Assembly (NCBI RefSeq): GCF_044647545.1
Contig: NZ_CP172818.1
DNA from: Escherichia coli
Lineage (GTDB): Bacteria > Pseudomonadota > Gammaproteobacteria > Enterobacterales > Enterobacteriaceae
DNA length: 64,000 nt
Strand: one strand, 5' to 3'
The stretch's first letter is position 1. The number at the start of each line of letters is the position of its first letter. This document shows positions 33,901-35,892 of this stretch, piece by piece. A program made the position numbers.

Positions 33901-35892
33901 CTGGCCAACCATTTTTCAGCGCCGTGGGTAATGCGGTGTCAACTTGTGCCGCGGGTGTTTGCTGGCTTAACGCCTGGCGGGTTTCATGCATAGGCGCACA
34001 CCCGGCTAGCATCAGTAACAGCGGAAAACAGGCGATGGCTGGATAAAAAGAATCACGATTCATGGGGGAATAATCAGGTAAGAAAAGGTGCGCGGAGATT
34101 ACCGTGTGTTGCGATATATTTTTTAGTTTCGCGTGGCAATACATCAGTGGCAATAAAACGACATATCCAGAAAAATATACACTAAGCGAATGATATCTTC
34201 CGATTTATCTTAATCGTTTATGAATAGCGGCAAAGGGCTTCGTTTTTTCCTATACTTATTCAGCACTCACAAATAAAGGAACGCCAATGAAAATTATACT
34301 CTGGGCTGTATTGATTATTTTCCTGATTGGGCTACTGGTGGTGACTGGCGTATTTAAGATGATATTTTAAAATTAATTAATGTCATCAGGTCCGAAAATA
34401 ACGAGAATATTTCAGTCTCTCATCCTGTTGCGCTCCTGTCATGTGCATTGCTTCATATAATCACTGGCGCAAGGAGCGCGCAGGGGGCGGCCAATCGCCG
34501 CCGCCCCCTGCACCCCCGGGCTCTGGCGAACAAAATCGCCGCTGCGCGGTGCCCTCGGCTTATCCCTTACGGCTACCGGGTCGGGCGCGAGGTAACATCC
34601 CTGTAAAACGCGCCCTCAGCCCACATCCATGTGGGCTGCCCCGGCCTTCAGGGAACGCCTCGGCAATTTTGACGCCACCAAACAACCGTGCGGCCTATTG
34701 ATAAAGAGCTAACACATTGTCAAAAAACATCACTATGGTTTTTTAGAGTTTATCGATATCAATTGCCTGAATAGCCCTTGCAATATCAGGGGAATTATTC
34801 AACATCCGAACATGCTGAAATAATTCTGTTGCTTCATCGTATTCTTTACGCAAATAACTCAACCACTGTTTAATCCGCGCTACGTGATATAACCCGGTAT
34901 CGCCCTGCTTTTCCAGACGGGTATATTTTTGCAGCAAAGCAACTACCTCCGGCCATGGCATTCGCGGTTCGTTATATTTTACCACCCGGCTCAGGTTGGG
35001 AATATTGAGCGCCCCGCGACCAATCATCACTGCGTCGCATCCGCTGATCGTCATGCATTGTTGCGCACTCTGCCAGTCCCAGATTTCACCGTTGGCAATC
35101 ACCGGAATATTCAGCCGCTGGCGAATCTCGCCAATCGCCTGCCAGTCAATATGCTCCGCGCGGTAACCCTGCTCTTTTGTCCGCCCATGTACTACCAGCT
35201 CCGTAGCGCCAGCCTGTTGCACCGCATCGGCGATTTCAAATTTCTTCTCACCGCTGTCCCAGCCCAGACGCACTTTTACGCTGACGGGCAAATGCGCCGG
35301 TACAGCTTCGCGCATCGCTTTTGCACCCTGATAGATGAGTTCAGGATCTTTGAGTAACGTCGCCCCACCGCCGCTACCGTTAACCGTTTTCGACGGGCAG
35401 CCGCAATTGAGATCCACGCCCCAGGAACCTAACTCGACCGCACGGGCGGCATTCTCTGCCAGCCATTGTGGGAACTGACCTAACAACTGCACGCGCACCA
35501 GCGTACCAGATGGTGTCCGGCTGGCGTTTTGTAGCTCAGGGCAAATGCGATGAAAGACTTTTACCGGCAGCAGTTGATCCACCACGCGGACAAACTCGGT
35601 GATGCACAGATCGTAGTCGTTAACTTCGGTCAGTAATTCCCGCACCAGAGAGTCAAGTACACCCTCCATCGGAGCCAGTAACACACGCATATCATCACCC
35701 GCAAAAAAATGAGGCGCTATGTTAGCGCCTATGGTCAGCGGATTAAAGGTCTGCAAAGAGGGATTGCTGCAAACTGCAATCCCTCTCTATGCTTGATGTA
35801 TGCCTGAGTTCGCTGCTCATTGCGTAATGCCCGGGAGCGAAAAAATAAGCGCTGATTTCTTAATGTGATCGGTAGCACGTTTTACGAATTAA

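What the first reader, a model, noticed from the sequence alone, without database searches (positions are those of the whole stretch)
34440..34700. GC-rich palindromic element between yohP and dusC
About 260 nt of unusually GC-rich, non-coding-looking sequence contains a 12-bp perfect stem (gcagggggcggc / gccgccccctgc, about 34480-34511) and a 10-bp perfect stem (cagcccacat / atgtgggctg, about 34617-34638). It does not match the REP consensus. It could be a structured small RNA, a different class of intergenic repeat, or a strain-specific insertion.
Basis: seen in the sequence. Interest (0 to 1): 0.5.

Follow-up and report, generated by a model that had tools for sequence, protein, structure and literature searches.

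The report
Known TRIP1c repeat with CsrA-like hairpins
The GC-rich palindromic stretch between yohP and dusC is TRIP1c, an E. coli intergenic repeat named in 1999, and its middle part turns out to be a diverged copy of an orphan structured-RNA motif (TwoAYGGAY) whose two hairpin loops look like binding sites for the regulator protein CsrA.

Summary
In detail: both perfect stems, the GC content (62-65%) and the non-coding character are confirmed. The element is not new. It is TRIP1c, one of the TRIP1 intergenic repeats (Rudd 1999; Li et al. 2024). It occurs in 5425 of 5426 complete E. coli genomes, with a median of 3 places per genome. Its function is unknown, and it is a documented substrate for megabase inversions.

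New here:
- Full-length homologues exist in Kluyvera, Pseudocitrobacter and other Enterobacteriaceae.
- A multi-branched fold is supported by covariation: 12 compensated pairs against 4.4±1.3 in shuffles.
- G·U against A·C variants point to the dusC-sense strand as the strand on which the fold is read.
- The 125-bp central module, which TRIP1b lacks, matches Rfam TwoAYGGAY below threshold (30.9 bits; cut-off 43). An aligned Kluyvera homologue passes (54.2 bits).
- Both hairpin loops read ACA-N-GGA-N-GU. GGA is invariant in 55 copies, the loops fit the CsrA SELEX consensus, and they lie 28 nt apart.

Against a CsrA role: there is no peak in published CsrA CLIP-seq, no promoter or terminator in the element, and mixed orientation relative to flanking genes. 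No transposase, terminal inverted repeat or clean empty site was found.

Verdict: a known repeat with a plausible but unproven RNA and CsrA reading.

The parts
34406..34726 (.). Full extent of family-level homology of the TRIP1c element. It nearly fills the 372-bp spacer between the yohP stop codon (34368-34370) and the dusC stop codon (34743-34745).
   Evidence: Alignments of 29 copies from different loci and genera stay alignable over this span. Flanks beyond it are unrelated between loci.
34427..34693 (-). TRIP1c core, 267 bp. It is 94.1% identical to K-12 TRIP1a and 88.2% identical to TRIP1d. The minus (dusC-sense) strand is the strand on which the conserved fold is best supported.
   Evidence: BLAST. 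Alignments. Li et al. 2024 place TRIP1c (273 bp) 43 bp downstream of the yohI/dusC stop. Strand test.
34430..34479 (-). Terminal hairpin: a 7-bp stem GCGCUCC/GGAGCGC (34473-34479 with 34430-34436) enclosing a 36-nt loop. The loop holds the conserved UAUAUGGC-type stretch.
   Evidence: Helix 13 (99.5% of cells paired; G·U variants only). Coordinates. Inverted repeat I8.
34480..34511 (.). It is the most conserved block of the family. The inner stem and loop are kept as far away as Dickeya, Erwinia, Ewingella and Rahnella, where the outer stem covaries.
   Evidence: Helix 12.
34514..34531 (.). Imperfect direct repeat DR2 (CCCCGGGCTCTGGCGAAC). Its partner is at 34639-34656. Together they bound the 125-bp segment that TRIP1b lacks.
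   Evidence: Direct repeat D2. TRIP1b alignments.
34639..34656 (.). Imperfect direct repeat DR1 (CCCCGGCCTTCAGGGAAC), the partner of 34514-34531.
   Evidence: D2, 72% identical..
34534..34685 (-). Central module matching Rfam TwoAYGGAY (RF01731) over the full model, below threshold. It comprises the closing helix P1 (34664-34679 with 34525-34538), internal helices and two GGA-loop hairpins.
   Evidence: This copy scores 30.9 bits, E 0.013, gathering score 43. TRIP1d scores 36.6 and TRIP1a 30.6 on the same relative strand. The aligned Kluyvera homologue L030:9515-9676 scores 54.2 bits. Helices 1-11; coordinates.
34617..34638 (-). Its loop motif is ACAUGGAUGU at 34623-34632. Three of its pairs show compensatory changes between copies (A-U/G-C, C-G/G-C, A-U/G-C).
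   Evidence: (helix 8, 100% paired). In 55 copies the loop reads CA[U/G/A]GGAUG with GGA invariant.
34583..34615 (-). Hairpin 2. Its loop motif is ACAGGGAUGU at 34595-34604, 28 nt from the hairpin-1 motif. UUACAGGGAUGU matches the CsrA SELEX consensus RUACARGGAUGU at 11 of 12 positions.
   Evidence: (helices 9, 10). Consensus quoted from PMC7652899.
34539..34549 (-). Small hairpin CCGC-GCA-GCGG inside the 3' arm region of P1. It has one compensated pair (G-C/A-U).
   Evidence: Helix 11. Coordinates.
34287..34370 (+). yohP, a 27-aa small membrane protein. It is the convergent left neighbour. Its transcript would enter the element in the plus orientation (context, not part of the repeat).
34743..35756 (-). 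dusC (yohI), the convergent right neighbour. The dusC-sense strand is the TwoAYGGAY-sense strand, and no terminator-like site lies between its stop codon and the element (context).

Best explanation
**What it is (shown).** This is TRIP1c, the yohP/mdtQ-dusC copy of the known TRIP1 intergenic repeat family of E. coli. It does not code for protein. It is a mosaic of modules:
- a conserved 5' arm;
- a long closing helix;
- a 125-bp central module with two adjacent hairpins;
- a 12-bp GC hairpin with a conserved 8-nt loop;
- a terminal long-loop hairpin.

The family is not confined to E. coli. It is more numerous in Kluyvera, where it forms the right half of a composite of about 660 bp. Modules also occur separately: TRIP1b lacks the central module, and solo GC hairpins exist. 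Different lineages carry the element in either orientation at the same locus. It therefore behaves like a non-autonomous dispersed, formerly mobile repeat. Its only documented effect on the host is as a recombination substrate, giving TRIP1a x TRIP1c inversions of about 1.3 Mb.

**How it most likely works (inferred).** The element is read as a single strand. The fold is kept by compensatory changes, and half-compensated pairs are G·U on the dusC-sense strand rather than A·C. On that strand the central module is a diverged member of the TwoAYGGAY motif class, which sits in the same Rfam clan as CsrB. Its two loops present ACA-N-GGA-N-GU with GGA invariant. They lie 28 nt apart, inside the published 10-63 nt range for one CsrA dimer bridging two sites.

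My best guess for this copy has three steps:
1. The module is transcribed by read-through as the 3' UTR of dusC.
2. There it acts as a dual-site binding element for a dimeric RNA-binding protein, with CsrA by far the best candidate.
3. The GC hairpins also give both convergent transcripts a stable 3' structure.

**Rough likelihoods.**
- Identity as TRIP1c: about 0.97.
- Homologous to TwoAYGGAY: about 0.8.
- Strand-specific single-stranded fold under selection: about 0.65.
- CsrA binds the RNA in vitro: about 0.6-0.7.
- CsrA binding matters in vivo: about 0.25-0.3.
For: **Identity**
- The literature description matches in position, size, the 94% identity to TRIP1a and the 125-bp deletion in TRIP1b.
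- MG1655 has 3 places, and 5425 of 5426 genomes hold a match.

**Family beyond E. coli**
- The genome-contig scan and BLAST found full-length copies in other genera.
- The repeat unit is a composite of about 660 bp in Kluyvera and Pseudocitrobacter.
- A metagenome scan added 26 more distinct full-length copies.

**Fold**
- 67 pairs, 99.4% of cells paired.
- 12 pairs are changed on both sides, against 4.4±1.3 in shuffles (0 of 500 shuffles reach 12) and 1-3 when partners are slid.

**Strand**
- The alifold consensus energy is -100.2 on the minus strand against -80.7 kcal/mol on the plus strand.
- On a Watson-Crick-only structure, G·U variants occur in 9 pairs against A·C in 1 pair with 29 copies.
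- With 55 copies the count is 11 pairs against 2.

**TwoAYGGAY**
- TRIP1c, TRIP1a and TRIP1d give reproducible full-model matches on the same relative strand: 30.9, 30.6 and 36.6 bits.
- The aligned TRIP1 homologue Kg3 L030 passes the gathering score at 54.2 bits.
- CsrB and TwoAYGGAY share clan CL00106.
- Gardner & Eldai 2014 proposed that TwoAYGGAY binds CsrA.

**Loops**
- CA-GGAUG and CA-GGA-G are invariant columns.
- GGA is invariant in 55 copies while the base before it varies.
- The window holds 4 ACANGGANGT matches against 1.34 expected. Two of them are 28 nt apart on one strand, inside the element.

**Read-through and mobility**
- No terminator-like site lies between the dusC stop codon and the element.
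- Flipped alleles exist at both the a and the c locus.
- TRIP1d is absent from K-12.
Against: - The published CsrA CLIP-seq in E. coli K-12 (Potts 2017, Supplementary Data 1, NC_000913.3 coordinates) lists no peak over TRIP1c or TRIP1a. dusC and ybjE are flagged 'No'.
- No sigma-70-like promoter and no intrinsic terminator lie inside the element. Any RNA depends on read-through.
- Across about 24 independent locus clusters, the orientation of the TwoAYGGAY-sense strand relative to flanking ORFs is mixed. The upstream gene is co-directional in 7 and opposite in 9. In K-12, TRIP1a is antisense to aqpZ and lysO.
- This copy scores below Rfam's gathering threshold, and loop 2 is AGGGAU, not AYGGAY.
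- Two GGA sites are far fewer than in the sponge sRNA CsrB (about 18 by my recollection, not counted here).
- The stems (9-10 bp, G+C rich) are longer than the stems of four or fewer pairs that SELEX favoured.
- The G·U bias would also fit a single-stranded DNA intermediate, because G·T is tolerated in DNA hairpins.
- I found no transcription data for the spacer.
Confidence: 0.5

Rival explanations
1. A purely selfish, non-autonomous mobile repeat with no host function. On this reading the conserved strand-specific fold and the invariant loops are needed for the element's own propagation. An example would be recognition of a folded single-stranded DNA or RNA intermediate by a transposase or recombinase encoded elsewhere. 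The match to the CsrA consensus would then be coincidental. At this locus the element would be a passenger whose only effect is to provide homology for inversions.
For: - Copy number varies from 1 to 8 places per E. coli genome and reaches 9 or more loci in Kluyvera cryocrescens, often at contig ends.
- Distribution across genera is patchy.
- Both orientations occur at the same locus, with different spacer flanks.
- TRIP1d is replaced by another palindromic repeat in K-12.
- The architecture is modular or mosaic.
- Orientation relative to flanking genes is random.
- There is no CsrA CLIP peak.
- Inversions are documented.
- G·T pairs are compatible with DNA hairpins, so the strand bias fits this reading too.
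Against: - No terminal inverted repeats, no target-site duplication and no clean empty site were found.
- No transposase or other recurrent gene lies next to the copies.
- The element is essentially absent from viral contigs: 1 hit in 2.9 million.
- In E. coli 99% of copies sit at five fixed loci, so there is no sign of recent movement.
- A loop motif that happens to equal the ACA-GGA-GU core of the CsrA consensus, twice, at bridging distance, and invariant across genera, is an unlikely coincidence.
Confidence: 0.3
2. A REP/BIME-like host element. On this reading the G+C-rich hairpins act at the ends of the convergent yohP and dusC transcripts. They would serve as barriers to 3' exonucleases or as a factor-dependent bidirectional stop, or they would bind nucleoid or topology proteins. 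The GGA loops would have no specific role.
For: - The element starts within about 20-50 nt of stop codons at every E. coli locus.
- Neither yohP nor dusC has a canonical terminator.
- Both strands fold very stably.
- Other repeats (a BoxC-like element and a REP) occupy equivalent spacers.
Against: - No run of U follows any hairpin on either strand.
- A simple 3' barrier does not need a 270-nt multi-branched fold with invariant loop sequences and strand-biased covariation.
- TRIP1b, which keeps only the outer modules, shows that the central module is separable, so this role would not explain the central module.
Confidence: 0.12
3. A DNA-level element. On this reading cruciform extrusion or the palindromes themselves are the functional feature, for example as a recombination hot spot or a protein-binding site on duplex DNA, and no strand is special.
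For: - Rudd (1999), as cited by Li et al., suggested stable cruciforms.
- Perfect palindromic stems exist.
- The repeats do mediate inversions.
Against: - The strand asymmetry is not expected for duplex or cruciform DNA: G·U against A·C variants in 11 against 2 pairs, and consensus energy -100 against -81 kcal/mol.
- Inversions need only homology, not structure.
Confidence: 0.05
4. A protein-coding gene: the 86-aa ORF at 34441-34701 on the plus strand.
For: The ORF is open in K-12-type TRIP1c.
Against: - It is broken by in-frame stops or length changes that are not multiples of three in 25 of 29 homologous copies.
- Substitutions follow base pairing, not codons.
- TRIP1b carries a 125-bp deletion.
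Confidence: 0.01

Closest known systems
TRIP1 intergenic repeats of E. coli (TRIP1a-e; Rudd 1999 Res Microbiol; Li et al. 2024 Genes 15:236)
   Same: It is the same thing. The locus (downstream of dusC/yohI, facing yohP and mdtQ/yohG), size, GC content, 94% identity to TRIP1a and relation to the 125-bp-deleted TRIP1b all match. So do the three copies in K-12.
   Different: Nothing differs for this copy.
- homologues outside E. coli;
- the covariation-supported fold and its strand;
- the link to TwoAYGGAY and the CsrA consensus;
- flipped alleles that carry the other locus's sequence type.
TwoAYGGAY RNA motif (Rfam RF01731; Weinberg et al. 2010)
   Same: - Two adjacent hairpins with AYGGAY-type loops, closed by a long P1 helix.
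- Full-length model alignment on one strand for TRIP1a, c and d.
- An aligned TRIP1 homologue from Kluyvera passes the gathering score.
- The motif is known from gamma-proteobacteria and the human gut.
   Different: - The E. coli copies score 30.6-36.6 bits, below the cut-off of 43.
- Loop 2 is AGGGAU.
- The motif is embedded in a larger repeat with extra modules (GC hairpin, terminal hairpin) that are not part of the Rfam model.
CsrB/CsrC (and Rsm) CsrA-sequestering sRNAs
   Same: GGA motifs are presented in hairpin loops with CA-GGA-UG context, and the families share a Rfam clan. The spacing is compatible with a CsrA dimer bridging two sites.
   Different: - There are only two sites.
- There is no promoter or terminator of its own.
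- There is no CLIP-seq signal.
- It is a multi-copy repeat in variable orientation, not a dedicated gene.
REP/BIME (PU) elements, BoxC and ERIC/IRU repeats
   Same: All are G+C-rich palindromic intergenic repeats that sit just after stop codons. They can be co-transcribed with flanking genes and share hot-spot spacers with other repeats.
   Different: - The sequence is unrelated, with no REP or naRNA-type match in the element.
- It is much longer, with a branched fold.
- Its copy number is far lower: 3 in K-12 against hundreds of REPs (the REP figure is from general knowledge).
MITEs and other non-autonomous elements (e.g. REPINs, IS200/IS605-derived PATEs)
   Same: It is a small, structured, non-coding, dispersed element with variable copy number between genomes and deletion derivatives.
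   Different: No terminal inverted repeats, target-site duplications or cognate transposase were found.

Membership tests
TRIP1 repeat family (E. coli) | TRIP1c lies in the spacer downstream of dusC (yohI), facing yohG/mdtQ, starting about 43-44 bp from the dusC stop codon. | tested here: met
   The element lies between yohP/mdtQ and dusC. The core ends at 34693 and the dusC stop codon is at 34743-34745. The literature position is quoted.
TRIP1 repeat family (E. coli) | About 94% identity to TRIP1a (aqpZ-ybjE spacer). TRIP1b (putP-efeU) is the same sequence with a 125-bp internal deletion. | tested here: met
   94.1% identity over 272 nt to L007:519-789. TRIP1b matches both ends and skips the middle.
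TRIP1 repeat family (E. coli) | G+C-rich (62-65%), three copies in K-12, present in nearly all E. coli. | tested here: met
   GC is 0.62-0.655. MG1655 has 3 places, and 5425 of 5426 genomes hold a match.
TwoAYGGAY RNA motif (RF01731) | Two adjacent hairpins whose terminal loops read AYGGAY. | tested here: inconclusive
   Loop 1 is AUGGAU, which fits. Loop 2 is AGGGAU, with G where Y is expected. Other family copies have AUGGAU in both loops, for example L060 and L030.
TwoAYGGAY RNA motif (RF01731) | A closing P1 helix, often long. | tested here: met
   Helices 1-2 (34664-34679 with 34525-34538) include a compensated A-U/G-C pair. The description of P1 is quoted.
TwoAYGGAY RNA motif (RF01731) | Score at or above Rfam's gathering threshold of 43 bits. 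| tested here: not met
   The window copy scores 30.9 bits, TRIP1a 30.6 and TRIP1d 36.6. The aligned homologue L030:9515-9676 reaches 54.2 bits. Homology is therefore likely, but this copy is not a member by Rfam's own rule.
CsrA-binding sponge sRNAs (CsrB/CsrC type) | Many GGA sites in one dedicated transcript with its own promoter and terminator. | tested here: not met
   The element has two loop GGA sites. A third GGA is base-paired (helix 5). No promoter-like or terminator-like site lies in the element.
CsrA-binding sponge sRNAs (CsrB/CsrC type) | Bound by CsrA in vivo. | tested here: not met
   Tested only against published data. Potts 2017 CLIP-seq has no peak at 2,229,1xx-2,229,4xx or 915,0xx-915,2xx. 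Low expression or discarded multi-mapped reads could hide a signal.
CsrA high-affinity binding site (SELEX) | RUACARGGAUGU with ACA and GGA, in a 6-nt loop closed by AC/GU. Two sites 10-63 nt apart allow bridging by one dimer. | tested here: met
   The motifs are ACAUGGAUGU (34623-34632) and UUACAGGGAUGU (ending at 34595), both on the minus strand and 28 nt apart. Actual binding was not tested.
REP/BIME | Units of about 35 bp matching the REP (PU) consensus, usually in clusters. | tested here: not met
   No REP or naRNA-type match lies in the element at E up to 10. No repeat_region is annotated in NC_000913.3. A REP-like match does appear in another spacer, so the scan can detect them.
MITE / non-autonomous transposon | Terminal inverted repeats, target-site duplication, and filled versus empty sites. 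| tested here: not met
   The ends show no inverted repeats. The alleles compared differ by whole-spacer replacement or flipping, not by clean insertion.
MITE / non-autonomous transposon | A cognate transposase in the same genomes. | tested here: inconclusive
   No transposase lies near the copies. Whole genomes were not searched.

The most novel reading that the evidence does not exclude
The 125-nt central module of TRIP1 is a functional CsrA-binding RNA, and it is the E. coli representative of the orphan TwoAYGGAY class. On this reading TRIP1 is a modular, once-mobile cassette. Depending on strain and orientation, it places a high-affinity dual CsrA site in the 3' or 5' UTR of flanking genes. 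Examples are:
- dusC in K-12;
- yohP in E69-type strains;
- alx and sstT where TRIP1d is present;
- aqpZ and lysO in O157-type strains.

This would give strain-specific wiring of those genes into the Csr regulon. In Kluyvera-type composites, with one module on each strand, it would work in either direction of transcription.
Probability: 0.25. Interest if true: 0.65.

Novelty: already known. Interest (0 to 1): 0.35.

Why it matters
As a sequence feature this is a catalogued repeat, so the scan finding itself is ordinary. Two orphan items now appear to be the same object. One is a 27-year-old E. coli repeat with no known function. The other is a 2010 Rfam motif with no known function. Both sit in the best-studied bacterium, which makes the CsrA-binding hypothesis for TwoAYGGAY directly testable with standard K-12 genetics, a gel shift and existing CLIP data. 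If the hypothesis holds, natural orientation and presence variants of TRIP1 would be ready-made experiments on strain-specific post-transcriptional wiring. If it fails, TRIP1 remains a useful marker of inversions and of spacer turnover.

Tried and rejected
- **Protein coding.** The 86-aa ORF is broken in 25 of 29 copies.
- **tRNA or tmRNA.** None found.
- **REP/BIME membership.** No match.
- **Independent sRNA gene.** No promoter-like or terminator-like site lies in the element. The only promoter-like hit lies at the yohP 3' end on the other strand.
- **Weak Rfam hits.** AgvB, miRNA and snoRNA families all scored far below their thresholds and were treated as noise.
- **Phage-borne element.** One hit in 2.9 million viral contigs.
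- **Associated transposase.** The neighbours of Kluyvera copies are ABC transporters, aminotransferases and HrpA.
- **Clean empty site or target duplication.** An artificial 'empty' aqpZ-lysO query found no empty allele. It found only flipped, shortened or replaced spacers.
- **In-situ inversion as the origin of flipped alleles.** The spacer flanks are not reverse complements of each other, and the sequence type is swapped between loci.
- **Consistent orientation to replication or to flanking genes.** Not found. The orientations of the K-12 copies come, and the wider survey.
- **Third GGA (AAGGGAUAAG).** It is base-paired and covaries (UCCCU/AGGGA against UGCCU/AGGCA), so it is not a candidate site.
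- **Transcript-end and CLIP support.** No CLIP peak was found. No usable Term-seq tables were found.
- **RSA repeats.** My initial guess that this might be the 'RSA' repeat was not pursued after TRIP1 was identified.
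Full report
**1. Observation**

The window around 34440-34700 lies between yohP (+, 34287-34370) and dusC (-, 34743-35756).

- The repeat finder reports both stems exactly as described. One is 12 bp, perfect, at 34480-34491/34500-34511 with an 8-nt loop. The other is 10 bp, perfect, at 34617-34626/34629-34638.
- GC is 0.62-0.655 against 0.35-0.47 in the flanks.
- Either strand folds far better than its shuffles: minus -141.6 kcal/mol (z -5.5), plus -128.8 kcal/mol (z -4.7).
- An 86-aa ORF spans the element but is broken in 25 of 29 homologous copies.
- There is no tRNA or tmRNA.
- No promoter-like or terminator-like site lies inside the element.

**2. Identity**

Megablast against 5426 complete E. 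coli genomes finds the segment in 5425. The median is 3 places per genome and the maximum is 8. MG1655 has three.

I identified paralogous places in three spacers:
- alx-sstT in strain SM107;
- putP-efeU;
- aqpZ-lysO.

The putP-efeU copy has both ends but lacks the central 125 bp. These are the properties of the TRIP1 repeats of Rudd (1999), re-surveyed by Li et al. 2024 (PMC10888264):

| Type | Spacer | Note |
|---|---|---|
| TRIP1a | aqpZ-ybjE | |
| TRIP1b | putP-ycdN | 125-bp deletion |
| TRIP1c | downstream of yohI (dusC) | 273 bp, 94% identical to TRIP1a |
| TRIP1d | alx-sstT | |
| TRIP1e | copA-ybaP | |

All are 62-65% G+C and of unknown function. They are substrates for inversions of up to 1.3 Mb, mostly between TRIP1a and TRIP1c. 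The window element is TRIP1c: 94.1% identical to K-12 TRIP1a over 272 nt. The finding is therefore a known repeat family.

**3. Anatomy and family**

A scan of 100,044 species-representative genomes with the 20-mer of the GC hairpin gave 72 loci. BLAST showed two groups:
- Full-length homologues (77-94% identity) occur in several Kluyvera species, Pseudocitrobacter, an unnamed gut Enterobacteriaceae genome, E. whittamii and other Escherichia. Kluyvera has up to nine loci in one genome, often at contig ends.
- Only the GC-hairpin region is kept in Dickeya, Erwinia, Ewingella, Rahnella and an unnamed Enterobacterales genome.

The more distant copies keep AGCCCGGGG plus the hairpin with loop GGCGAUUG, and the outer stem covaries. 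Their central module differs. In Erwinia both hairpin loops carry GGA; in Dickeya the first loop is AUGGAU and the second is less clear. Ewingella and Rahnella have no GGA loops.

In Kluyvera and Pseudocitrobacter the repeat unit is about 660 bp. TRIP1 is its right half. The left half carries its own GC hairpin and an inverted two-hairpin module. Solo GC hairpins and TRIP1b-like short forms also exist.

TRIP1 is thus a mosaic of separable modules. Family-level homology in the window runs from about 34406 to 34726, nearly filling the spacer.

**4. Structure and strand**

On 29 full-length copies (alignment A5, dusC-sense orientation) I counted a 67-pair, 13-helix structure.
- 99.4% of cells are paired.
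- 12 pairs are changed on both sides, against 4.4±1.3 in shuffles (0 of 500 reach 12) and 1-3 when partners are slid.

The RNAalifold consensus energy is -100.2 kcal/mol for this strand against -80.7 for the other.

I then derived a structure with Watson-Crick pairs only, so that neither strand is favoured.
- With 29 copies, half-compensated variants are G·U in 9 pairs and A·C in 1 pair.
- A metagenome scan added 26 distinct full-length copies. With 55 copies the count is 11 pairs against 2 (39 cells against 2).

This points to selection on a single-stranded form of the dusC-sense strand. That form could be RNA or, in principle, single-stranded DNA.

**5. The central module**

An Rfam scan at relaxed threshold matches TwoAYGGAY (RF01731) over the full model on the minus strand at 34534-34685. 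The score is 30.9 bits, E 0.013, against a gathering score of 43.

| Sequence | Score (bits) |
|---|---|
| TRIP1c (this window) | 30.9 |
| TRIP1a (K-12) | 30.6 |
| TRIP1d (SM107) | 36.6 |
| Kluyvera genomosp. 3 TRIP1 copy, L030:9515-9676 | 54.2 |
| Erwinia rhapontici, two matches | 57.2 and 48.2 |
| Pseudocitrobacter left-half module | 49.2 |

TRIP1a and TRIP1d match on the same relative strand as TRIP1c. The Kluyvera copy aligns along the whole length of TRIP1 in A5. The E. coli module is therefore very probably a diverged TwoAYGGAY, although by Rfam's rule this copy is not a member.

TwoAYGGAY is an orphan motif from the human gut, gamma-proteobacteria and Clostridia, with a long P1 helix. 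It sits in the same Rfam clan as CsrB. Gardner & Eldai (2014) proposed that it binds CsrA.

In the window the loops read ACAUGGAUGU (34623-34632) and ACAGGGAUGU (34595-34604), both on the minus strand and 28 nt apart.
- Across 55 copies GGA is invariant in both loops, while the base before it varies (U, G, A, or absent in loop 2).
- The CsrA SELEX consensus is RUACARGGAUGU. ACA and GGA are invariant in it, the loop is 6 nt closed by AC/GU, and one dimer can bridge sites 10-63 nt apart.
- The window has 4 ACANGGANGT matches against 1.34 expected, and two of them are this pair.
- A third GGA (AAGGGAUAAG) is base-paired and covaries, so it is not a site.

**6. Evidence against a CsrA or RNA role**

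- The published K-12 CsrA CLIP-seq table, which uses NC_000913.3 coordinates and includes unannotated peaks, has no peak over TRIP1c (2,229,111-2,229,396) or TRIP1a (915,018-915,288). dusC and ybjE are flagged negative. Low expression or removal of multi-mapped reads could explain this.
- The element has no promoter or terminator of its own.
- Orientation to neighbours is not consistent:
  - In K-12, TRIP1c is sense to dusC.
  - TRIP1a is antisense to aqpZ and lysO.
  - TRIP1d is sense to alx and sstT.
- Over about 24 locus clusters the upstream ORF is co-directional in 7 and opposite in 9. ORF calling here was crude.
- The composites of about 660 bp carry a module on each strand. This softens the orientation argument for those genera but not for E. 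coli.
- I found no transcript-end data for this spacer.

**7. Mobility**

- K-12 lacks TRIP1d and has another palindromic repeat in its place.
- At yohP-dusC, strain E69 and E. whittamii carry an a-type copy in the opposite orientation.
- At aqpZ-lysO, O157:H7 carries a c-type copy in the opposite orientation, and another strain has a short b-like form. The unique spacer flanks differ as well. This is not a simple in-situ inversion. Nor is it the known a x c inversion, which swaps flanks.
- No clean empty site, terminal inverted repeat or target duplication was found.
- No transposase lies near the copies.
- The element is essentially absent from viral contigs.

The family behaves like an old, non-autonomous dispersed repeat that occupies hot-spot spacers.

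**8. Interpretation**

*Shown:*
- The element is TRIP1c, a known, non-coding, modular repeat.
- It has a conserved, covariation-supported fold.
- Its central module is homologous or near-homologous to TwoAYGGAY.
- Its loops equal the core of the CsrA consensus.

*Inferred:*
- The fold is read on the dusC-sense strand.
- In this locus that strand is made as the dusC 3' UTR.
- A dimeric RNA-binding protein, most plausibly CsrA, binds the two loops.

The main rival is a selfish element whose fold serves its own spread. A REP-like 3'-end role and a duplex-DNA role are less likely. These readings are not mutually exclusive, since origin as a mobile repeat and RNA-level activity can both hold.

**9. 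Novelty and score**

The feature is already known as a repeat family. The link between TRIP1, TwoAYGGAY and the CsrA consensus, the homologues outside E. coli, and the strand-biased covariation are not mentioned in the 2024 TRIP1 paper. That was the only paper on these repeats in the searchable library. Rudd 1999 itself could not be read.

Interest is modest at 0.35. The most novel reading not excluded is a modular CsrA-binding cassette giving strain-specific Csr wiring. I put its probability at about 0.25.

Noticed in passing
L004:2095-2235 (K-12 alx-sstT spacer) against L002:1487-1796 (strain SM107): K-12 has a different G+C-rich palindromic repeat (CTCCCTCTCCC...GGGAGAGGG...GGGGTGAGGG) exactly where SM107 has TRIP1d. 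From memory it looks like BoxC, which I did not test. The spacer is a hot spot where alternative repeats replace each other.
   Followed up: partly
L050:7719-8376; L062:5299-5900; L030:9360-9775: In Kluyvera and Pseudocitrobacter, TRIP1 is the right half of a composite repeat of about 660 bp. The left half holds its own GC hairpin (L050:7786-7814) and an inverted TwoAYGGAY module (L062:5670-5733, 49.2 bits). Each strand therefore carries one module.
   Followed up: partly
L027 (E. coli E69) and L040 (E. whittamii), yohP-dusC spacer; L081 (O157:H7 EC4115) and L082, aqpZ-lysO spacer: Flipped alleles exist at both loci. The yohP-dusC locus can hold an a-type TRIP1 in reverse orientation. The aqpZ-lysO locus can hold a c-type TRIP1 in reverse orientation, or a short b-like form. 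The unique spacer flanks differ in each case. Neither the known a x c inversion nor gene conversion explains this.
   Followed up: partly
L052, L053, L056-L058, L074, L076 (Ewingella, AwEntero, Erwinia, Rahnella): Distant relatives of the GC-hairpin module are flanked by short tandem repeats such as (TTGAAG)n, (GGTTTG)n and (AAAGATTT)n. Their meaning is unknown.
   Followed up: no
L005:3116-3152 (K-12 putP-efeU spacer): A REP-like sub-threshold match to naRNA4 (28 bits; cut-off 59.5) lies next to TRIP1b. This is another case of different repeat classes sharing one spacer.
   Followed up: no
L054 (NZ_JABWSY010000051.1, 'Bacillus sp. EB106-08-02-XG196', 583 bp, coverage 0.72): This contig is an E. 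coli-type TRIP1 with aqpZ-lysO-like flanks. It is almost certainly contamination of that Bacillus assembly. The small 'Proteobacteria MAG' contig L021 likewise looks E. coli-derived.
   Followed up: no
window 34359-34386 (-): The only sigma-70-like promoter match in the region (ATGACA, 16-nt spacer, TATCAT; 10 of 12) lies on the minus strand over the yohP stop codon, pointing into yohP antisense. About 1.7 such matches are expected by chance in this stretch, so it is probably noise.
   Followed up: no
window 52550-52559 (+) and 63507-63516 (-): Two further matches to the CsrA-core pattern ACANGGANGT (ACATGGAGGT and ACAGGGATGT) lie elsewhere in the window. I did not examine their context.
   Followed up: no
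window 32627-34153 (-): mdtQ (yohG) next to yohP is annotated as a frameshifted pseudogene in K-12 records, a known feature. The window ORF list shows a 508-aa ORF from a TTG start there.
   Followed up: no
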